This document shows, piece by piece, positions 1,844 to 16,592 of a DNA stretch of 64,000 bases. Each line of letters opens with the position of its first letter. The stretch's first letter is position 1. The stretch lies in IMG/VR virus record IMGVR_UViG_3300027971_004105; one strand, 5' to 3'. Under the pieces are notes generated by a model. That model saw only the letters and a program-made list of their open reading frames with translations, was not told the origin of the DNA and did not search any database. A program made the translations under genes and the position numbers. This DNA is from a virus (lineage: Duplodnaviria > Caudoviricetes).

Positions 1844-2170
1844 ATGGTCAAGATGAAAGATTTCACAGCAATTACCAGAGACAACATGGGATATGATGTG
1901 GTAGAGGACATATATCAATTCATGTTGAATGACAGTGTTTTTTTTAGGAAACATTTCTTTCCAGTGGCCAAACAAGTCACAGACAATCATATGATTGAAA
2001 AAGATGTCAACATGTGGAGCAATTGTGTGGAAAATGCCATCCAAGAATATTTTAAAAAATTTAAAATCAAAGCCAAACCAGAAAAAATAATCAATGCAGA
2101 TGATCGCGTGAATCTTGTGGGCAAGATTACCAAAGGGTTGGCACAACATCCGGTCAAGAATGCACAATGA
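1844..2170 (+). CDS. hypothetical protein
   Basis: 108 aa, tightly packed, ATGA overlap with next gene. Confidence 0.65.
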   Translation: MVKMKDFTAITRDNMGYDVVEDIYQFMLNDSVFFRKHFFPVAKQVTDNHMIEKDVNMWSNCVENAIQEYFKKFKIKAKPEKIINADDRVNLVGKITKGLAQHPVKNAQ

Positions 2171-2733
2171 GACTCATAGAAATAAGTCAGCCAGCGCCTA
2201 AAATTGCCGCATTTGCTTACGGCAGAATGAATCCACCCACCACAGGTCATAAAAAATTAGTGGATACCATTGCGTCTCAGCCAGGAGATCATTTTTTATT
2301 TTTAACACACACTCAAGATGCCAAAACAAATCCTTTGAGTTTTGAAGACAAAGTGCTGTATGCTCAAAAAATGTTCCCCACAGTCACAGTGGGAGATGCA
2401 GGAGTTAAAACCATCATTGATGCCATGAAGAAATTACAAGGCATGGGCTACCGAGATATCATATATGTGGCAGGTTCAGACAGAGTACAACAATTTGATC
2501 AATTGCTGAGCAAATACAATGGCAAAGATTATCAGTTTGACAGTATTAGAACTGTGAATGCTGGCATGAGAGATCCAGATGCCGAAGGTGCTGCAGGTGT
2601 GAGTGCCAGCAAAGCCCGTGAATATGCTGTGCAAGGTGCTAGACGCAGCTTTTTAAGCACCATTCCCGCAGATGAAAAAATTGGCAACGAGATATATCAA
2701 AAAATACGTCAAAACCTAAAGCAAACAGCATAA
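2167..2733 (+). CDS. cytidyltransferase-like (HIGH-family) nucleotidyltransferase
   Basis: YGRMNPPTTGHKKL (HIGH-like), VAGSDR, SASKAR (KMSKS-like). Confidence 0.8.
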   Translation: MRLIEISQPAPKIAAFAYGRMNPPTTGHKKLVDTIASQPGDHFLFLTHTQDAKTNPLSFEDKVLYAQKMFPTVTVGDAGVKTIIDAMKKLQGMGYRDIIYVAGSDRVQQFDQLLSKYNGKDYQFDSIRTVNAGMRDPDAEGAAGVSASKAREYAVQGARRSFLSTIPADEKIGNEIYQKIRQNLKQTA

Positions 2734-2736
2734 ATA
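2731..2736 (+). promoter_or_regulatory. T4-like late promoter core TAAATA
   Basis: 4 nt before ATG 2741, no SD in between. Confidence 0.55.
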
Positions 2737-2959: not shown

Positions 2960-3825
2960 AGCTAAGACACATCATCAACGAAATGGGTTCTAGAATGCCA
3001 TCATCTATGGTAAAAACTAAATCTAAACTGGACATGATGAATCCAGATGAGATTAGAGCGTTCTTTAAAAATAGAGAAGATTTTGCAGCACAACACAGAG
3101 GCGGAAAGATAGCACCAGGATTTTCAGCCAAAGAATTAGCACAGAGACAGGAGTTCAGCTATGGCAGAGAATTTGCCAAAGGTCGTCCTTACTCTAAACA
3201 TTTTGAAAGCACAGAATTAGACGAAGGTTTAAAAGATTGGTTACAAAAAATGGCTGTGGCTGGAATTATTGTGGGCAGTGTGGCAGGCATAGGTTCCATC
3301 AATAATGCCATCAATAATAATGTGCCAGTGATACAAGCCATGAACAAAGCATTAGATGTTGCTAATCAAAAAGGCGACAAACAATTGATACAGAACATAA
3401 AACAAGATATTGATGTGGCTAAAATAAGTTTGGATTCAGGCAAAGATTTGAATACTGTAAAGCAATTACAAGATAGATATGCAAAATTTATGCCAGCTGA
3501 TTATAAACCTTCTACTCCTAAGACAGTGGGCGAAGAAGTGTCTAAAACAGACACACTGACCATAGACATACCTATGTTTATTAGATTGATGGAATATGCC
3601 AGAGAAGATGCCAAGACTGATATGGATCTACACAATGTTACCACAAATTTATTAAAGATCAAAGACAAAACTATCAGCATGGCTGATTATGATCAAGTGG
3701 TTCAGTCCACAGATGTTGACACTGCTGACGAAAGTTTCAAAGATAAAATTGCTAAAAAAATTGTTCAACCCATAAAAGATTACAACAAAGACAAAGATAA
3801 AGAGCAAGAACCAAAAAAATCTTAA
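2956..3825 (+). CDS. modular hypothetical protein, putative internal head protein
   Basis: MKLRHIINE N-terminus; modules bounded by xxE sites. Confidence 0.6.
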   Translation: MKLRHIINEMGSRMPSSMVKTKSKLDMMNPDEIRAFFKNREDFAAQHRGGKIAPGFSAKELAQRQEFSYGREFAKGRPYSKHFESTELDEGLKDWLQKMAVAGIIVGSVAGIGSINNAINNNVPVIQAMNKALDVANQKGDKQLIQNIKQDIDVAKISLDSGKDLNTVKQLQDRYAKFMPADYKPSTPKTVGEEVSKTDTLTIDIPMFIRLMEYAREDAKTDMDLHNVTTNLLKIKDKTISMADYDQVVQSTDVDTADESFKDKIAKKIVQPIKDYNKDKDKEQEPKKS

Positions 3826-3829
3826 TCAT

Positions 3830-3991
3830 ATGATCAAAGAAAAACCATACTGTGTCAACTGCGGTGGGTCAACTCATTGTGGTAAAACTTTCAAAAGAAA
3901 AGAGAGCGAAACTGTCAATAACAAAGTCACACGTGAATGGACCATAGAAGTATGCCGCAATTGTTGTTGTTCAAAATGTGACAAAGAGTAA
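3830..3991 (+). CDS. small Cys-rich (putative Zn-binding) protein, 53 aa, absent from the ORF track
   Basis: Hand translation MIKEKPYCVNCGGSTHCGK...EVCRNCCCSKCDKE*; TAATG coupling to next gene. Confidence 0.7.
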   Translation: MIKEKPYCVNCGGSTHCGKTFKRKESETVNNKVTREWTIEVCRNCCCSKCDKE

Positions 3992-4710
3992 TGAAAATAG
4001 CCGAAATCACACATACCAAAATAACACTTGATTTGCACAACGAAAAGTTGTATAATAATACTTGCATGACAGAACAAAATCAAGTGAGACCCACTGTGTA
4101 TTTGGACATGGATGGTGTGATTGCTGACTTTTTTGGTGGAGTGGAGAAATTGTACGGTGTGGATCACTGGAAACAATTGACTTCTGACAAAACCAAAGAT
4201 CTCAAACAAGAAGTGATAGACAGAATAGCCGGCACAGATTTCTTTGCTAATCTGCCTAAATTTCCCACAACTGACACACTGATTGAAATGATTAAAAAAT
4301 TCACTGGTGGAAAATACAGCATACTAACATCTCCATTGAGAGGTGACACTGAAAACAGTGGATATTACAAAAAGATTTGGATAGGTAAAAACATAGTCAA
4401 GCCTGATGAGATTATTGTTACAGGCAGCAAAGAAGGTTGGGCCACAAAGAATGGTGTGAGCAACATATTGATTGACGATAGACCTATCAATATTGAAAAG
4501 TGGCGTGCCAAAGGTGGATATGGCATACTGTATCAAGCCAACAAAGATCCATTGAGCAAAGTCACACAAGCATTTGAAAATTATCATAAAAAACAATTGG
4601 AACCTGTGGAAGATGCAGCAGGCGTGGGCATCATTACCAAACAAAATACCACTCGAGATGTCAAACCAGGTGAGATCCGCAGACAAGCAAAAAAATTAAA
4701 ACTGGTTTAA
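3991..4710 (+). CDS. HAD-family 5'(3')-deoxyribonucleotidase with N- and C-terminal extensions
   Basis: YLDMDGVIADF motif I and ILIDD motif IV; possible second start ATG 4066. Confidence 0.85.
   Translation: MKIAEITHTKITLDLHNEKLYNNTCMTEQNQVRPTVYLDMDGVIADFFGGVEKLYGVDHWKQLTSDKTKDLKQEVIDRIAGTDFFANLPKFPTTDTLIEMIKKFTGGKYSILTSPLRGDTENSGYYKKIWIGKNIVKPDEIIVTGSKEGWATKNGVSNILIDDRPINIEKWRAKGGYGILYQANKDPLSKVTQAFENYHKKQLEPVEDAAGVGIITKQNTTRDVKPGEIRRQAKKLKLV
4028..4056 (+). promoter_or_regulatory. sigma70-type promoter internal to the nucleotidase N-terminal extension
   Basis: TTGATT-17 bp-TATAAT, 9 nt before in-frame ATG 4066. Confidence 0.65.
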
Positions 4711-4714
4711 TACC

Positions 4715-4918
4715 ATGAAGATTCGTGAAGTAACAGAAAATTTTGCAGATGGCAAAGGTCCAGGCAAACCAGGTGACAGCAAGCGAGCAGGCATACCCAA
4801 AGGTGCTACCATCACACAATTAAAAAAGATACGCAGTTCTAAAACAGCATCCGCACGCAAGAAACAACTGGCACACTGGCAAATAAACATGCGCCAAGGT
4901 CGCAAACGCACTAAATAA
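4715..4918 (+). CDS. small basic putative internal head protein
   Basis: MKIREVTE N-terminus, Lys/Arg-rich body. Confidence 0.65.
   Translation: MKIREVTENFADGKGPGKPGDSKRAGIPKGATITQLKKIRSSKTASARKKQLAHWQINMRQGRKRTK
4912..4917 (+). promoter_or_regulatory. T4-like late promoter core TAAATA
   Basis: 8 nt before ATG 4926. Confidence 0.5.
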
Positions 4919-4925
4919 TAGTGCT

Positions 4926-5105
4926 ATGAAAATCAACGAAATTTTTAATTGTTCACTGTGTGGTAATCCCAGTTATCTAACACTGTCTGAATCTGAAAAA
5001 CAAAAAGGTGTGGACGGCAAAGTGTGTTGGAAAGGCTACAAACGCATGGGCACCAAAATGAAAGGTGGCAAACGTGTAGATAATTGTGTGCCATCAGGCA
5101 AATAG
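4926..5105 (+). CDS. small putative internal head protein, 59 aa, absent from the ORF track
   Basis: Hand translation MKINEIFNCSLCGNP...CWKGYKRMGTKMKGGKRVDNCVPSGK*; stop abuts ATG 5106. Confidence 0.75.
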   Translation: MKINEIFNCSLCGNPSYLTLSESEKQKGVDGKVCWKGYKRMGTKMKGGKRVDNCVPSGK

Positions 5106-5297
5106 ATGAAAATCAAAGAAATTACCGAATCCCGAGCAGATTATCATTACGGCATTGATCCAGCACAGTTGAGCTACACATTCAAAGTGGGCGATATATA
5201 CGGTCCAAAAAATCTCAAAGTACCACACGCAAGACTGTACAAAGGTGGCAAAGCAGTGAAAAAGCTGGGCATCACTGTGCCCAAAGTTCACAAATAA
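5106..5297 (+). CDS. small putative internal head protein
   Basis: MKIKEITE N-terminus. Confidence 0.65.
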   Translation: MKIKEITESRADYHYGIDPAQLSYTFKVGDIYGPKNLKVPHARLYKGGKAVKKLGITVPKVHK

Positions 5298-5335
5298 TCC
5301 CAAACACCACATAAATACAGCATAGGCGAAACACA

Positions 5336-5536
5336 ATGAAAATAAGAGACATCATAAGAGAAGTGGCATCTGTAGGATCCACATCTGCGGGCAATATTGC
5401 CAGCATAGCCAATCCACACGTGACCAATCCTTATGCTCACAAAAGTGCCAAAGCCAAACCCAAAAAACAAAAACCCACTGATAATGCACTGGACATGAAA
5501 AACGTCAGCATATTCGGCGGCCCATTAAAAAGATAA
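5336..5536 (+). CDS. small putative internal head protein
   Basis: MKIRDIIRE N-terminus; TAAATA at 5312-5317. Confidence 0.65.
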   Translation: MKIRDIIREVASVGSTSAGNIASIANPHVTNPYAHKSAKAKPKKQKPTDNALDMKNVSIFGGPLKR

Positions 5537-5539
5537 ATA
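5534..5539 (+). promoter_or_regulatory. T4-like late promoter core TAAATA
   Basis: 5 nt before ATG 5545. Confidence 0.55.
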
Positions 5540-5544
5540 CTCAT

Positions 5545-5922
5545 ATGAAATACAAACAGATCAAAGAAGGTTTAGGAGATGCAGCTCACAAAGCTGAGTT
5601 GGATCACGAAGTTCAAATGGCTCGTGCTGACCTATACAAGTTGGCCAAATACAGCATCAAACTGCATGAGTTGTTAAAGAACGTTTCGGAAGCAGAAGGT
5701 CTGGAAGGTTGGGTTCAAGCCAAGATCACTAAAGCTGCTGATTACATCAGTTCTGTGTATCATTACATGGATTATGATGAAAAATTTGATCAAGCTGAAA
5801 TTGACAGCATACCTGTGCAAGACATTGCGAAACAATCCGATGGCAAAATAGAAACCTACGAAGAGATTCTTTTTAAAATCTTAAATAAAAAAGTCACAGA
5901 GAAGAAAAATAACAAAAAATAA
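5545..5922 (+). CDS. putative internal head protein
   Basis: MKYKQIKE N-terminus; helical DHEVQMARADLYK...WVQAKITKA module. Confidence 0.65.
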   Translation: MKYKQIKEGLGDAAHKAELDHEVQMARADLYKLAKYSIKLHELLKNVSEAEGLEGWVQAKITKAADYISSVYHYMDYDEKFDQAEIDSIPVQDIAKQSDGKIETYEEILFKILNKKVTEKKNNKK

Positions 5923-5939
5923 AAAATTGGAGTGCTGGA

Positions 5940-6458
5940 ATGAAAATTAATGAAATAGTTTCAGAAGCACCTTTTGTCAAAGCATTAAAAAGTTTCCCTG
6001 CTCAAGCAACCAAAGCCATAAAAAATTTCCCCAATCAAATAAAGCAAGGCGCCAAAGACGTTAAACAAACAGTAAAAAACTTTCCAGGAAGTGTTCAAAA
6101 TTATTTGTCAAAAGACGACAATATGTCTAAAATAGCCACTGATATTTCCACCATAGGTGGTGGCCCAGGTCTTAAAGACTATGGAGCTGGTGACAAATCA
6201 TCAGATGCACAATTTCAGGATCTGTTAAATGTGCTACAGGATAAATCCTTGAGCAAAAAAATTGACAAGCAAAAAATTACCACAGCAATGACAAACATGT
6301 ATCAATCAGATAGACAACTTCCCACTGATAGACAGTATTTTATAAATGCAATCAAGCATTTATCCGCAACACACCCAGAGATCACGCCAGACAAAATATA
6401 CAGCGAGTATAAACCAATATTCAAAAGATATCAAATCAATCCTAACGAAATAAAATAA
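5940..6458 (+). CDS. putative internal head protein
   Basis: MKINEIVSE N-terminus; short internal repeat (KSFP/KNFP x3). Confidence 0.6.
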   Translation: MKINEIVSEAPFVKALKSFPAQATKAIKNFPNQIKQGAKDVKQTVKNFPGSVQNYLSKDDNMSKIATDISTIGGGPGLKDYGAGDKSSDAQFQDLLNVLQDKSLSKKIDKQKITTAMTNMYQSDRQLPTDRQYFINAIKHLSATHPEITPDKIYSEYKPIFKRYQINPNEIK

Positions 6459-6478
6459 TTGATTGATAACTATTGTGT

Positions 6479-7129
6479 ATGAATTTCGTAGTGAACACGC
6501 CATACATTCAAGCCTACATCAAAAAAGAATATCTGTATGACTTTCAAAAAGGTCATGGAGAATTTGTGCCTTGCAATTGGGTCACATTAAAGTCTATTCC
6601 TCGCAGAGCATTCTACATAGAAGCATATCTACCAGAATATGGTGCACTGTATGACAAATTGCCTTTGAGTGCATTTGTTTGGCGCACAGATATCAAACCA
6701 GAAGAACAGTTGCCTTTGGATTACTTGCAACTGTGGGATGGCTTCAGCTATCATATCACCATCATTGAGAAACAATATCTACAGTACAGCCGAGTGGATG
6801 TGATTCTCAAAGATGGCAAAAAGATGTCAGGGGTATATCTGTTCACAGTGGACAGTGCTCATTCAGATCCCAACACTCCCAATGTGACTGAATCAGAAGT
6901 GCCATCTGAACACAAAGGACACAACATAGGCCAATTGGACAATGGTCAATTTTTTGCTCAGCCCAACAATAGAATGATCTGGCATGAATCCAGTGCCAAT
7001 CCAGGCAAGTTAAAAACACCCGATTTCAAAGTGAGTACCAAATATTGGCACTGTGAACAGAATGCCAAATGGGTGTTTGGTGATTCTGATGAATATTTTT
7101 ACAAAGAATCCAAAAAAGAAGACAAATAA
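6479..7129 (+). CDS. conserved hypothetical phage protein
   Basis: KKEYLYDFQKGHGEF and FFAQPNNR motifs; ATG 6479 preferred over GTG 6473. Confidence 0.7.
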   Translation: MNFVVNTPYIQAYIKKEYLYDFQKGHGEFVPCNWVTLKSIPRRAFYIEAYLPEYGALYDKLPLSAFVWRTDIKPEEQLPLDYLQLWDGFSYHITIIEKQYLQYSRVDVILKDGKKMSGVYLFTVDSAHSDPNTPNVTESEVPSEHKGHNIGQLDNGQFFAQPNNRMIWHESSANPGKLKTPDFKVSTKYWHCEQNAKWVFGDSDEYFYKESKKEDK

Positions 7130-7686: not shown

Positions 7687-7980
7687 ATGAAGTACATCAT
7701 TGACATTGACAACACAATTTGCTATAATAAAGACAGCGATTATGTCAACAGTACACCTGACATCACACGCATAGCCCGAGTTAATCAGTTGTATGATGAT
7801 GGACACGAGATTCATTATTACACAGCAAGAGGTGGCAACTCCGGCAAAGACTGGAGTGAGTTAACTCGTCAACAGTTGACTGAATGGGGGTGCAAATTCC
7901 ATTCAGTAAATTTGGGCAAACCAGTGTATGATGTTTGGGTGGATGACAGAGCAGTAAACGCAAAGGATTTTTTTAAATGA
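7687..7980 (+). CDS. minimal HAD-superfamily phosphatase
   Basis: IIDIDNTIC, YYTARG and GKPVYDVWVDD motifs. Confidence 0.75.
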   Translation: MKYIIDIDNTICYNKDSDYVNSTPDITRIARVNQLYDDGHEIHYYTARGGNSGKDWSELTRQQLTEWGCKFHSVNLGKPVYDVWVDDRAVNAKDFFK

Positions 7981-9035
7981 GAATAGATTATAACATATAT
8001 TTGGATTACGCAGACGTACTATTAAAACCCAAAAGATCCACACTGAGTTCAAGACGTGATGTGGACATGACTAGAGATTTCACATTTCGTAACAGCAAAC
8101 AGCAGATCTCATTTGTGCCTGTGGTTGCCAGCAACATGGATGGTGTGGGCACATTCAGTATGGCCAGAGTATTACAAGAATATAAACTTTTAACTGTGTT
8201 AAGAAAACATTACACCATTGCGGATTGGGACAGAGCAATAGGCACAGGATTAAAATTACAATATGTGAGTGCGTGTACAGGCACAGGAGCCATGTGGGAC
8301 AACAATTCACCAGACTATCAAACTTTAAAAAAAGTTATGGAGAAATATCCAGATGTGAGCATGATTACCATAGATGTGGCCAATGCTTATCATGAACAGT
8401 TTGTGGACTTTGTTAAGAGAATAAGATCTGAATTTCCCGACAAGACCATCATAGCAGGCAATGTGGTATCACCAGAGATGGTGGAAGAATTAATCATCAA
8501 TGGAGCAGACGTGGTCAAAGTGGGCATAGGTCCAGGATCAGTGTGTACCACTCGTACACAAACAGGAGTGGGAGTGCCACAGTTTTCTGCCATCATAGAA
8601 TGTGCTGATGCTGCCAACGGAGTGGGTGGACACATCATTGCTGATGGTGGTTGCACACAGCCAGGAGACATAGCCAAAGCATTGGCTGCAGGTGCTCACA
8701 TGGTGATGTTGGGTGGCATGCTGGCAGCACATGATGAATCAGAATTAGAATTGAAAGATGGCAAAAGAGTATTCTACGGCATGAGTTCCGAATCAGCATT
8801 TGAAAAACACGGCGCAAGAAAAGATGGCTACAGAGGCACTGAAGGCAAAACAGTAAAATTAGACAACAAAGGTCCTGTGAAAGACACTGTGGAACAGATA
8901 TTGGGCGGAGTCAGAAGCACTTGCACTTATATAGGAGCAAGAAGAATCAAAGACATGCCCAAGTGTGCTCACTTCGTGAGAGTGAACAATGTGATCAACA
9001 GAGTTTTTGACAGATATGAAACAAATAAAAATTGA
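7977..9035 (+). CDS. guaC: GMP reductase
   Basis: LDYADVLLKPKRSTL, ASNMDGVG, GIGPGSVCTTR (catalytic Cys), IIADGG, FYGMSS; no CBS domains. Confidence 0.93.
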   Translation: MRIDYNIYLDYADVLLKPKRSTLSSRRDVDMTRDFTFRNSKQQISFVPVVASNMDGVGTFSMARVLQEYKLLTVLRKHYTIADWDRAIGTGLKLQYVSACTGTGAMWDNNSPDYQTLKKVMEKYPDVSMITIDVANAYHEQFVDFVKRIRSEFPDKTIIAGNVVSPEMVEELIINGADVVKVGIGPGSVCTTRTQTGVGVPQFSAIIECADAANGVGGHIIADGGCTQPGDIAKALAAGAHMVMLGGMLAAHDESELELKDGKRVFYGMSSESAFEKHGARKDGYRGTEGKTVKLDNKGPVKDTVEQILGGVRSTCTYIGARRIKDMPKCAHFVRVNNVINRVFDRYETNKN

Positions 9036-9255
9036 TCTAATTCTCAAATGGATAGCCACAGCCATATTGATTGTGGGCACATTTGTTAATGCTGGATTTC
9101 CAGAACTATATCCCGTGGGACCAATACTGTTGGCCTTGGGTGGAGTATTTTGGTTGGTAGTTTCATTGATTTGGCGAGAACCTGCACTGATTGTGACCAA
9201 CATTGTGTTGACATGTGTGGGCTTTGGTGGTATAATACTATATTACATTAGATAA
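9016..9255 (+). CDS. small membrane protein
   Basis: Three hydrophobic segments; ATG 9016 preferred. Confidence 0.65.
   Translation: MKQIKIDLILKWIATAILIVGTFVNAGFPELYPVGPILLALGGVFWLVVSLIWREPALIVTNIVLTCVGFGGIILYYIR
9208..9236 (+). promoter_or_regulatory. consensus sigma70 promoter with extended -10, upstream of polB
   Basis: TTGACA-17 bp-TATAAT with TGn, inside the 3' end of the membrane-protein gene. Confidence 0.85.
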
Positions 9256-15708: not shown

Positions 15709-16592
15709 AAACATTGGTTATAGGATTGGGTATTGGACAATTGTATGTTAGAGTCTTAACACAGTTGGGTCATACAGTATTCACAGTGGATCCTGATCAA
15801 AACAAACAAGCCACATTCACAAATTTAAAAACAGCTCTATTGGCTCATCCCAAATTGGATGCAGTGTTCATATGCACTCCTAATTATACACATGATTCAA
15901 TAGCTCAAACAGTTGCACCACACAGTAGAGTGGTATTTGTAGAAAAACCAGGAGTGCTTAATTCTAAAAGATGGCAGAGTCTTCAACTCACATATCCAAA
16001 CGCTAAATTTATCATGATGAAAAACAATATGTGGCGCACAGTGGAAGAAGAAATGCGTATTAGAATAGATGATGCTGAAGAAGTACACATTAACTGGATC
16101 AATCGCAACAGAGTGCCAGCACCAGGCAGCTGGTTTACTGATAAGAAATTATCATTTGGTGGAGTCAGCAGAGATCTTATGCCACATTTATTGAGTATGT
16201 TCATCTGGTTGAATCCTGATACATATTCTCAATATCAAATAGTTTCTTCCAATCGTAAACAAAATTGGAAATTAAGTGATCTTACTGATACAGAATATGG
16301 TGCAGTAAATTTAGATGGCACATATGATGTGGATGATTGGGCTGAAATGGTGTTCAATAACGGTAAAAAAACATTCAAACTTACTGCTGATTGGCGCAGT
16401 ATGGACAAAGATGACAGAGCACTGCACTGTTATAAAAGAGAAAAATTAATTAAAAGTTTTGAACTAGGATTATGTCCTGAATCAGCTTATGCTGCAATGA
16501 TTCAAGATGTTTTCAATAATATTAACCATGAAGAGTTTTGGAATCAACACAAGCAGTATGATGTGTGGATTCATAATTTAATCAATGACTGA
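15705..16592 (+). CDS. Gfo/Idh/MocA-family oxidoreductase
   Basis: IGLGIG Rossmann motif, ICTPNYTH, VEKP. Confidence 0.85.
   Translation: MKTLVIGLGIGQLYVRVLTQLGHTVFTVDPDQNKQATFTNLKTALLAHPKLDAVFICTPNYTHDSIAQTVAPHSRVVFVEKPGVLNSKRWQSLQLTYPNAKFIMMKNNMWRTVEEEMRIRIDDAEEVHINWINRNRVPAPGSWFTDKKLSFGGVSRDLMPHLLSMFIWLNPDTYSQYQIVSSNRKQNWKLSDLTDTEYGAVNLDGTYDVDDWAEMVFNNGKKTFKLTADWRSMDKDDRALHCYKREKLIKSFELGLCPESAYAAMIQDVFNNINHEEFWNQHKQYDVWIHNLIND

What the first reader, a model, noticed from the sequence alone, without database searches (positions are those of the whole stretch)
3991..4710. One gene, two products? Nucleotidase nested in a head-cargo frame with its own internal early promoter
The long form starts MKIAEI (cargo-like, TAATG-coupled). 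Its 25-codon extension contains TTGATT-17-TATAAT (4028-4056), ending 9 nt before in-frame ATG 4066 where the HAD domain begins. After the domain, a (V)E site precedes a separate tail (DAAGVGIITKQNTT...). Inference: a promoter-plus-nucleotidase unit inserted in frame into a small internal-protein gene, giving an early, nearly leaderless cytoplasmic form and a late packaged form.
Basis: partly seen in the sequence, partly recalled or inferred. Interest (0 to 1): 0.7.

Follow-up and report, generated by a model that had tools for sequence, protein, structure and literature searches.

The report
Nucleotidase gene with conserved internal promoter
A phosphatase gene of an uncultured lake phage carries, inside its own first 25 codons, a bacterial-type promoter placed to start a second, shorter message at an in-frame start codon, and about 70 related phage contigs keep this arrangement letter for letter, so one gene very probably makes two forms of the enzyme.

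Summary
Observation confirmed. ORF 3991-4710 (239 aa) is an NT5C/HAD 5'(3')-deoxyribonucleotidase-type enzyme (residues 31-204). It has a 25-codon N-extension starting MKIAEI and a 35-residue basic tail. TTGATT-17-TATAAT lies at 4028-4056, and in-frame ATG 4066 follows 9 nt later.

The promoter is not a chance match. In 43 distinct relatives:
- the -10 is TATAAT in 40;
- the Leu codon in front of it is always TTG, while other invariant Leu columns use 5-6 codons;
- the codon before that always ends in G;
- the -35 always starts TTG, with a 17-nt spacer;
- an in-frame ATG follows the -10 by 6 nt (34), 9 nt (8) or 15 nt (1), which fits a leaderless mRNA.

The same block sits behind three unrelated upstream parts, always in an open frame: an MKIxEI leader, an MRLxEI leader, or a fused NMNAT-like nucleotidyltransferase. 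In phage Melnitz it is an ordinary intergenic promoter in front of a plain 175-aa gene.

Not shown: the transcription start, the timing, and any packaging of the long form. The scan noted this same stretch once more in another reading, and similar leader arrays in other genomes. Closest precedent: Shigella virF (VirF30/VirF21). Verdict: new variant of a known kind.

The parts
3991..4710 (+). Long ORF, 239 aa: leader, promoter-coding linker, NT5C/HAD domain, basic tail
   Evidence: the frame is open in all relatives
3989..3993 (+). TAATG overlap between the stop of the upstream 53-aa Cys-rich ORF (3830-3991) and the long-form start
   Evidence: the same start/stop overlap is seen in L014, L017 and L019
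3991..4008 (+). MKIAEI leader, shared in the form M[KR][ILY]x[EDHQ][ILV] by nine + strand ORFs between 2167 and 5940
   Evidence: in relatives, variable sites in leader codons fall 4/4/8 by codon position, as in coding DNA
4028..4033 (+). -35 hexamer TTGATT, read as codons for L-D-L
   Evidence: TTG is invariant in 43/43 distinct relatives, where the hexamer is TTGACG (14), TTGACA (10), TTGCAx (10) or TTGATT (3)
4051..4056 (+). -10 hexamer TATAAT, read as Tyr-Asn of the conserved KLYN
   Evidence: TATAAT in 40/43. The preceding Leu is TTG in 48/48, and the codon before it always ends in G. Asn is AAT in 47/47, although AAC is preferred elsewhere
4063..4064 (+). Predicted transcription start, 7-8 nt after the -10, leaving a 2-3 nt leader
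   Evidence: Inference from the usual sigma-70 spacing; not measured. RNA contigs give no ends
4066..4710 (+). Nested in-frame short ORF, 214 aa (M26 to V239): nucleotidase plus tail
   Evidence: M26 is invariant in A2. The Melnitz homolog starts at the aligned Met. An in-frame ATG lies 6, 9 or 15 nt after the -10 in 34, 8 and 1 of 43
4081..4602 (+). NT5C/HAD fold, residues 31-204, with DMDG (D39, D41), T113/S114, K147 and D162-D163
   Evidence: AF2 pLDDT 84-97 over this range; the best Foldseek hits are 3bwv, 1q92, 2jao and 2i7d; the residues are invariant
4603..4707 (+). Basic tail module (GVGIITKQNTTxDVKPG...KKLKL), predicted disordered
   Evidence: pLDDT below 50; the profile finds 388 protein clusters with the module at N-terminal, internal or C-terminal positions
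4715..4918 (+). Next gene: MKIREVTE leader plus the ENFADGKGPG...WQINMRQGRK module. In relatives it is fused to the nucleotidase ORF (295-297 aa) or to the leader-tail gene (104 aa)
2167..2733 (+). NMNAT-like HIGH-motif nucleotidyltransferase with an MRLIEI leader. In 42 related loci it is fused in frame, across the promoter, to the nucleotidase
2730..2736 (+). Late-promoter-like ATAAATA, 4 nt before ATG 2741; the likely head of the transcript that carries the long form
   Evidence: no + strand terminator-like site lies between 2730 and 4710; the role is inference

Best explanation
This is a nested, in-frame pair of genes. A sigma-70-type promoter (TTGATT-17-TATAAT, 4028-4056) is written into codons 13-22 of the long ORF. 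Host RNA polymerase starting there would give an mRNA whose 5' end lies 2-3 nt before ATG 4066. In most relatives the 5' end would fall exactly on the A of the ATG. That mRNA is translated without a leader into a 214-aa nucleotidase that starts at M26 and still carries the basic tail. The 239-aa long form starts at ATG 3991 and is coupled to the preceding gene through TAATG. It is read from a longer transcript, probably the one headed by the late-type motif at 2730. It adds the MKIAEI leader that eight neighbouring genes also carry. Shown here: the sequence features, their nucleotide-level conservation, the three fusion contexts, the intergenic version in Melnitz, the fold, and the existence of leader-tail genes without the enzyme. 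Inferred: that the promoter fires early, that both proteins are made, and that the leader sends the long form into the prohead in the way of the T4 capsid targeting sequence. I put that last step at about 0.3 on its own.
For: (1) Synonymous sites are frozen only at the promoter. Leu is TTG in 48/48, while nine other invariant Leu columns have a major codon of 28-48%. The preceding codon is AAG (35), AGG (6) or CAG (2), although Lys elsewhere is about 80% AAA. Asn is AAT in 47/47, although AAC is about 65% elsewhere. Tyr is TAT in 46/47.
(2) The -35 starts TTG in 43/43 with a 17-nt spacer. Ten relatives have the full consensus TTGACA-17-TATAAT.
(3) The in-frame start is ATG in all 43, lying 6 nt (34), 9 nt (8) or 15 nt (1) after the -10.
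(4) Conservation begins at about -38. Upstream of that point the sequences are unrelated: an MKI leader, an MRL leader, or an NMNAT-like domain. The frame is open in 72 of 72 such loci.
(5) Melnitz has a terminator hairpin, then TTGACT-17-TATAAT in intergenic DNA, then the ATG 8 nt on. Its protein aligns from M26.
(6) AF2 gives pLDDT below 50 for residues 1-30 despite their conservation, so the KLYN peptide is not part of the fold.
(7) The long-form start overlaps the upstream stop here and in three other clades. Leader codons vary mostly at third positions.
(8) Late-type NTAAATA motifs lie 3-9 nt before nine gene starts in the window, so very short leaders appear to be usual in this phage.
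(9) An RNA-library contig spans 3947-4166, which fits a read-through transcript; this is weak evidence.
Against: No 5' end, protein or virion data exist. The only RNA data are low-depth assembled contigs from lake metatranscriptomes, which cannot show starts and may include DNA. The window's own -35 (TTGATT) is weaker than in relatives, and its ATG is 9 rather than 6 nt from the -10. The host and its capacity for leaderless translation are unknown. One clade (L076-L081) has the enzyme behind an MKFFEV leader with no internal promoter, so the dual arrangement is not obligatory. In this ORF the leader lacks the E at positions 8-10 that most neighbouring leaders have.
Confidence: 0.6

Rival explanations
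1. The promoter and the leaderless start at M26 are real, but the short enzyme is the only product that matters. The upstream in-frame reading would then be a tolerated by-product of compact gene packing, in which a neighbouring ORF has lost its stop, and the long form has no role of its own and is not packaged.
For: Melnitz manages with the plain 175-aa gene and an intergenic promoter. AF2 predicts the extension to be disordered. The window holds other consensus promoters inside coding DNA, at 7700-7728 and 9208-9236.
Against: The frame is open in 72 of 72 loci across three unrelated upstream partners, although single substitutions in the spacer could create stops. The leader follows the family-wide pattern and overlaps the upstream stop. 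NT5C domains recur inside other leader-bearing multi-domain proteins without this promoter, such as P0159, P0173 and P0265.
Confidence: 0.17
2. The conserved block is mainly a recombination and regulatory junction of the PeSL type. Such early-promoter sequences let cassettes move between T4-like genomes, and here the block may drive downstream genes. M26 would not be used as a leaderless start, and the enzyme would be made only as the long or fused protein.
For: Homology between contexts begins exactly at the -35. Melnitz has the terminator-plus-promoter composite typical of PeSLs (PMC4122927, PMC2839356). The cassette has clearly moved between contexts.
Against: A junction role does not explain the invariant ATG at 6-9 nt from the -10, nor that the Melnitz protein starts at that Met. 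The two roles also do not exclude each other.
Confidence: 0.1
3. There is no internal promoter function. The KLYNExM stretch would be conserved as a peptide, for example a linker or a processing site, and a single long protein would be made.
For: The stretch is translated in every relative, and E follows LYN in 88% of sequences.
Against: Selection on the peptide cannot fix synonymous codons: TTG in 48/48, a third-position G before it in 43/43, AAT in 47/47. The stretch is predicted disordered. The same DNA is non-coding in Melnitz.
Confidence: 0.04

Closest known systems
Shigella virF: VirF30 and VirF21, the latter from a leaderless mRNA made by a gene-internal promoter (Di Martino et al. 2016, PMC5101355)
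   Same: One ORF with an internal promoter. The 5' end lies 1-2 nt before an in-frame ATG, and the shorter protein lacks the N-terminal segment.
   Different: virF is a chromosomal or plasmid-borne regulator, and its short form is an autorepressor. Here the gene is a phage enzyme. The promoter is a near-consensus sigma-70 site conserved at synonymous sites in dozens of lineages and portable between fusion partners. Nothing has been measured.
Nested in-frame products in phage T4, for example gp21 and gp21s from Met45 (review PMC9026906); from my own memory also genes 49 and 17
   Same: A T4-like phage makes a full-length protein and an N-terminally shortened one from a single frame.
   Different: For gp21s the review describes a second start codon, not a sigma-70 promoter with a leaderless start. 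The internal late promoter of gene 49 is my recollection and was not checked here.
Lambda cI expressed from PRM as a leaderless mRNA (own knowledge, not checked here)
   Same: The promoter is placed so that the transcript begins at the AUG.
   Different: The cI start is not nested inside a longer ORF.
T4 capsid targeting sequence of internal proteins IPI-III and Alt, removed by the gp21 protease after Glu (Mullaney & Black 1996, via PMC9026906)
   Same: A short N-terminal leader (MK, hydrophobic, x, E, hydrophobic ...) is shared by unrelated neighbouring genes of a T4-like phage. Most of these leaders end in [IV]-x-E.
   Different: Packaging and cleavage are untested here. This ORF's leader has I-A-E at residues 3-5 but no E at 8-10. 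The leader also sits on metabolic enzymes.
PeSL promoter-terminator cassettes of T4-like phages (PMC2839356, PMC4122927)
   Same: A conserved early-promoter sequence marks the boundary at which unrelated sequence has been exchanged. Melnitz has the hairpin plus promoter.
   Different: In the window the promoter is inside coding DNA, in frame and without the stem-loop.
Polyvalent proteins of phages (Iyer et al. 2017, PMC5512222)
   Same: The tail module recurs in leader-bearing proteins of up to 1141 aa that string together NT5C, ParB-like, zeta-toxin-type kinase and LysM domains.
   Different: The window protein has only one enzyme domain. No MPTase-type peptidase domain was seen. The small modules themselves are undescribed.
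5'(3')-deoxyribonucleotidases cdN and mdN, and the S. epidermidis deoxyribonucleotidase-like protein 3bwv (Pfam NT5C)
   Same: The fold and all HAD catalytic motifs.
   Different: About 20% identity. The substrate is unknown, and the frequent fusion to an NMNAT-like enzyme hints at a pyridine-nucleotide rather than a dNMP substrate.

Membership tests
NT5C / HAD 5'(3')-deoxyribonucleotidase family (PF06941) | Profile match above the curated cut-off | tested here: met
   26.4 bits against a cut-off of 24.8, residues 33-183; phrog_2643 E 8.7e-25
NT5C / HAD 5'(3')-deoxyribonucleotidase family (PF06941) | HAD motifs: DxDxV nucleophile, Ser/Thr, Lys, and an acidic pair | tested here: met
   D39-M-D41-G-V, T113/S114, K147 and D162-D163 are invariant or nearly so in 21 and 48 sequences
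NT5C / HAD 5'(3')-deoxyribonucleotidase family (PF06941) | Fold like cdN/mdN | tested here: met
   The AF2 core has pLDDT 84-97. Best Foldseek hits: 3bwv (E 1.5e-8), 1q92, 2jao, 2i7d
NT5C / HAD 5'(3')-deoxyribonucleotidase family (PF06941) | dNMP phosphatase activity | not testable with these tools
   Needs an enzyme assay
Sigma-70 promoter | -35 TTGACA-like and -10 TATAAT-like hexamers 16-18 nt apart | tested here: met
   TTGATT-17-TATAAT, 10 of 12 matches; relatives reach 12 of 12
Sigma-70 promoter | Selection on the DNA itself rather than on the encoded peptide | tested here: met
   Synonymous sites are fixed at both hexamers, while other conserved codons vary freely in the same sequences; the block is non-coding in Melnitz
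Sigma-70 promoter | A transcript 5' end about 7 nt after the -10 | not testable with these tools
   Only assembled RNA contigs are available
Leaderless mRNA | AUG (not GUG or UUG) at or within a few nt of the 5' end | tested here: inconclusive
   ATG in 43/43, 6 nt after the -10 in 34 and 9 nt in the window; the 5' end itself is not measured
T4-type capsid targeting sequence | The same short N-terminal leader on otherwise unrelated proteins of a T4-like phage | tested here: met
   Nine + strand ORFs between 2167 and 5940; every ORF with the tail module in relatives starts MKI/MRL
T4-type capsid targeting sequence | The leader ends in a protease site, hydrophobic-x-Glu, near residue 8-10 | tested here: inconclusive
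   Neighbouring genes have VTE, ITE, IRE, VSE or INE at residues 6-9. This ORF has only IAE at 3-5
T4-type capsid targeting sequence | Incorporation into the prohead and cleavage by the head protease | not testable with these tools
   Needs virion proteomics. A relative (G003) has a gp20-gp23-type head module, and an 80-aa ORF beside the portal gene starts MKLMEFF
PeSL cassette | Composite of a terminator stem-loop and an early promoter at an exchange boundary | tested here: not met
   The window has the promoter and the exchange boundary but no stem-loop. Melnitz has the full composite
Polyvalent proteins | Several effector domains in one polypeptide, in a phage late or virion gene context | tested here: not met
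   The window protein has one enzyme domain plus small modules. Relatives that carry the tail module do qualify by architecture

The most novel reading that the evidence does not exclude
The block 'sigma-70 promoter, leaderless ATG, enzyme' is a portable cassette that T4-like jumbo phages splice in frame into capsid-targeted modular genes. One gene then deploys the same enzyme twice. One copy is packaged late behind the MKIxEI leader and injected with the DNA at the next infection. A leader-free copy is made from the first minutes by host polymerase. If so, dual coding of a promoter inside a targeting-leader linker would be a general way to cover the window before phage transcription starts.
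Probability: 0.25. Interest if true: 0.8.

Novelty: new variant of a known kind. Interest (0 to 1): 0.6.

Why it matters
Gene callers report one protein here and in hundreds of related metagenomic ORFs, including 390-aa 'fusion enzymes'. If the internal promoter works, each of these genes yields two proteins with different N-termini, and probably with different timing and location. The case is unusually clean for showing that a promoter can be maintained inside coding DNA: the constraint can be read from frozen synonymous sites, and the same element is non-coding in a cultured relative. It also gives a concrete, testable entry into two open matters. One is how common leaderless expression is in aquatic T4-like phages. 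The other is what the MKIxEI-type leaders and the small basic modules do; these occur in at least 388 protein clusters and have no annotation.

Tried and rejected
- Megablast of 3000-7000 against cultured phages found nothing. The window's own assembly is not held; the nearest record, G001, is 99% identical and so adds no diversity.
- RNA evidence. 24 lake or freshwater metatranscriptome runs hold parts of the stretch, but all are kept as assembled contigs. Laying four of them gave short, low-depth pieces and no table of starts, so nothing can be said about a 5' end at 4063 or about expression level.
- Extended -10. The TG is not in register.
- (V)E cleavage idea. LEPVE|D has Pro at -3. Junctions before the tail module in relatives (NEE|AAGVG, KQE|GVG) also lack a hydrophobic -3. 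Junctions before the NFADGK module (EFRE|N, AVDE|N, VTE|N) fit better. I make no claim from this.
- KLYNE as a protease site. The window clade has N, K or S in place of E.
- Naming the tail and the neighbouring modules. Pfam and PHROGs give nothing for the tail or for ORF 4715-4918. The ESM Atlas gives only unnamed viral clusters.
- NAD theme. The upstream nucleotidyltransferase matches CTP_transf_like only below the cut-off (17.5 against 21 bits). The small membrane ORFs are not PnuC by Pfam; one is DUF6552. An NMN-related substrate therefore remains a guess based on the fusion alone.
- dN/dS on the 12 leader codons. There are too few sites, so I only counted variable positions.

Full report
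**What is there.** The window is part of an uncultured freshwater T4-like jumbo phage with 38% G+C. Related contigs reach 215-221 kb, and the closest cultured relative is Methylophilales phage Melnitz. ORF 3991-4710 encodes 239 aa. Residues 33-186 match NT5C, the 5'(3')-deoxyribonucleotidase family (Pfam 26.4 bits against a cut-off of 24.8; phrog_2643 E 9e-25). All HAD catalytic motifs are invariant in relatives.

An AlphaFold model built on 48 sequences is confident for residues 31-204. It gives pLDDT below 50 for residues 1-30 and 205-239. Its best structural matches are a bacterial deoxyribonucleotidase-like protein (3bwv) and mammalian mdN and cdN.

- The upstream stop and ATG 3991 overlap as TAATG.
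- TTGATT (4028-4033), a 17-nt spacer and TATAAT (4051-4056) follow.
- Nine nt further on lies in-frame ATG 4066 (M26).

**Is the promoter more than chance?** Taken alone, not clearly. Loose promoter-like sites are as frequent as in shuffled sequence (35 against 34.2). The stricter pattern TTGAY-N16-18-TATAAT is enriched (7 against 0.74 expected).

The decisive evidence is comparative. I fetched 80 related viral loci and lined up the 43 distinct versions of this segment:
- The -10 is TATAAT in 40 of 43.
- The -35 begins TTG in all 43 (TTGACG 14, TTGACA 10, TTGCAx 10, TTGATT 3), always with a 17-nt spacer.
- An in-frame ATG follows the -10 by 6 nt in 34, 9 nt in 8 (the window's clade) and 15 nt in 1.

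The element is translated as ...(V/I/L)(D/A)xxNxKLYN..M, so the peptide could be what is conserved. A codon-level control on the same sequences excludes that:
- The Leu before the -10 is TTG in 48 of 48. Nine other invariant Leu columns use five or six codons, with the commonest at 28-48%.
- The codon before it is AAG, AGG or CAG, so it always ends in G. Lys elsewhere is about 80% AAA.
- The Asn inside the -10 is AAT in 47 of 47, although AAC is the preferred codon elsewhere.

The selection is therefore on the DNA. The structure model agrees, since it treats the conserved peptide as disordered.

**The same block in different settings.** Conservation starts at about -38. Upstream of that point the sequences are unrelated:
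- 11 loci have an MKIxEI leader, as in the window.
- 19 loci have an MRLSEI or MRILDL leader.
- 42 loci have a whole NMNAT-like nucleotidyltransferase domain fused in frame, giving ORFs of 386-397 aa.

The frame is open in all 72. In the window that nucleotidyltransferase is a separate gene (2167-2733), three genes upstream.

In Melnitz the homolog is a plain 175-aa gene that aligns from M26. Its upstream DNA is truly intergenic: a terminator hairpin, then TTGACT-17-TATAAT, then the ATG 8 nt later. So a promoter with a start codon at leaderless distance is an old property of this gene. In the window's lineage an upstream reading frame has been joined across it.

One clade (L076-L081) has the enzyme directly behind an MKFFEV leader with no such promoter. 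The arrangement is therefore common but not obligatory.

**How it most likely works.** In sigma-70 promoters transcription usually starts about 7 nt after the -10 (established knowledge). With 6 nt between the -10 and the ATG, the A of the ATG is the first base of the RNA, which makes a leaderless mRNA. In the window the start would fall at 4063-4064 and leave 2-3 nt of leader. The start codon is ATG in every relative, as leaderless translation requires.

The long form would come from a longer transcript. No terminator-like site lies on the + strand between a late-type ATAAATA motif at 2730 and the end of the gene. The long-form ATG also overlaps the preceding stop, both here and in other clades.

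In T4-type phages sigma-70 promoters are early and TATAAATA-type promoters are late (established knowledge; PMC2988021 appeared in a search but I did not read it).

Very short leaders seem normal in this phage: NTAAATA motifs lie 3-9 nt before nine gene starts in the window. The only expression data are assembled contigs from lake metatranscriptomes. One contig bridges 3947-4166, which fits a read-through RNA, but contigs cannot show starts.

**Leader and tail.** Nine + strand ORFs between 2167 and 5940 begin M[KR][ILY]x[EDHQ][ILV], and most of these leaders end in [IV]-x-E at residues 6-9. This resembles the T4 capsid targeting sequence and the Glu-specific cleavage by the head protease (PMC9026906). 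In relatives the leader codons vary mainly at third positions, as coding DNA does.

The tail is a separate module. A profile of it finds 388 clusters among 1.84 billion representative proteins of 31-1141 aa. The module sits right after an approximately 8-residue MKxxEx leader, or internally, or at the C-terminus.

The larger carriers string together NT5C, ParB-like, zeta-toxin-type kinase, LysM and nucleotidyltransferase domains with the same small modules. That architecture recalls the polyvalent proteins predicted to be packaged and injected (PMC5512222).

- L033:5233-5547 (104 aa) has leader, tail module and the NFADGK module.
- L076:3676-3876 (66 aa) has leader and tail module.
- L014 (297 aa) is the same string with the nucleotidase block between leader and tail.

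Both the long and the short form would carry the tail. Packaging, cleavage and the function of the modules are untested. The proposed LEPVE|D site does not fit the hydrophobic-x-E pattern.

**Comparison with what is known.**
- The mechanism has a close experimental precedent in Shigella virF, where a gene-internal promoter gives a leaderless mRNA for the shorter VirF21 (PMC5101355).
- T4 itself makes nested in-frame products such as gp21s from Met45 (PMC9026906).
- The coincidence of the promoter with an exchange boundary recalls PeSL cassettes (PMC2839356, PMC4122927). The window lacks their stem-loop, though Melnitz has it.

New here are three things: a near-consensus promoter kept inside coding DNA across dozens of lineages and three fusion partners, its placement for leaderless expression of an enzyme domain, and its position between a targeting-type leader and the enzyme.

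**Verdict.** I rate it a new variant of a known kind, with interest 0.6.

The scan holds another first-stage note on this same stretch, and notes on similar leader arrays in this and other genomes. I used them only as leads.

Noticed in passing
window 7700-7728: A perfect TTGACA-17-TATAAT with an extended-10 TG lies inside codons 5-14 of the HAD-like ORF 7687-7980. It overlaps the ORF's DIDNT catalytic motif and is again read as ...Y-N. No in-frame ATG follows, so it may drive the GMP-reductase gene at 7977.
   Followed up: partly
window 9208-9236: A second perfect consensus promoter lies inside the 3' end of the small membrane ORF 9016-9255 (DUF6552), 83 nt before the DNA polymerase start.
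   Followed up: no
window, gene starts 428, 2741, 4926, 5545, 18052, 26489, 34890, 58775 (-) and others: Late-promoter-like NTAAATA motifs lie only 3-9 nt before nine ATG starts. Many late mRNAs of this phage may therefore be leaderless or nearly so.
   Followed up: partly
L001 (Melnitz) 3925-4003: The Melnitz nucleotidase gene is preceded by a terminator hairpin and TTGACT-17-TATAAT, with the ATG 8 nt after the -10. This is a PeSL-like composite with a near-leaderless start in a cultured phage, which makes it a convenient test system.
   Followed up: partly
proteins P0159, P0201, P0225, P0249, P0265 (metagenomic): These leader-bearing mosaic proteins of 750-1140 aa combine the QNT and NFADGK-type small modules with NT5C, ParB-like, zeta-toxin/AAA_33 kinase and LysM domains. 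They form a polyvalent-protein-like family without annotation.
   Followed up: partly
window 4926-5105: The 59-aa leader gene ends in a Cys-containing basic module (CWKGYKRMGTKMKGGKRVDNCVP) that matches the inside of seven unrelated PHROGs of 262-492 positions. It is another promiscuous small module.
   Followed up: no
L085 (G003) 15941-16183, minus strand: In a related 196-kb contig an 80-aa ORF between the portal gene and the protease/scaffold genes starts MKLMEFF, a leader of the same type as the window's MKIxEI genes.
   Followed up: no
L015-L075 (42 loci), e.g. L041:2398-3579: The NMNAT-like nucleotidyltransferase and the NT5C nucleotidase are fused in one ORF of about 390 aa, with the promoter in the linker. 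The pairing suggests a shared pathway, possibly in pyridine nucleotides, that is not annotated anywhere.
   Followed up: partly
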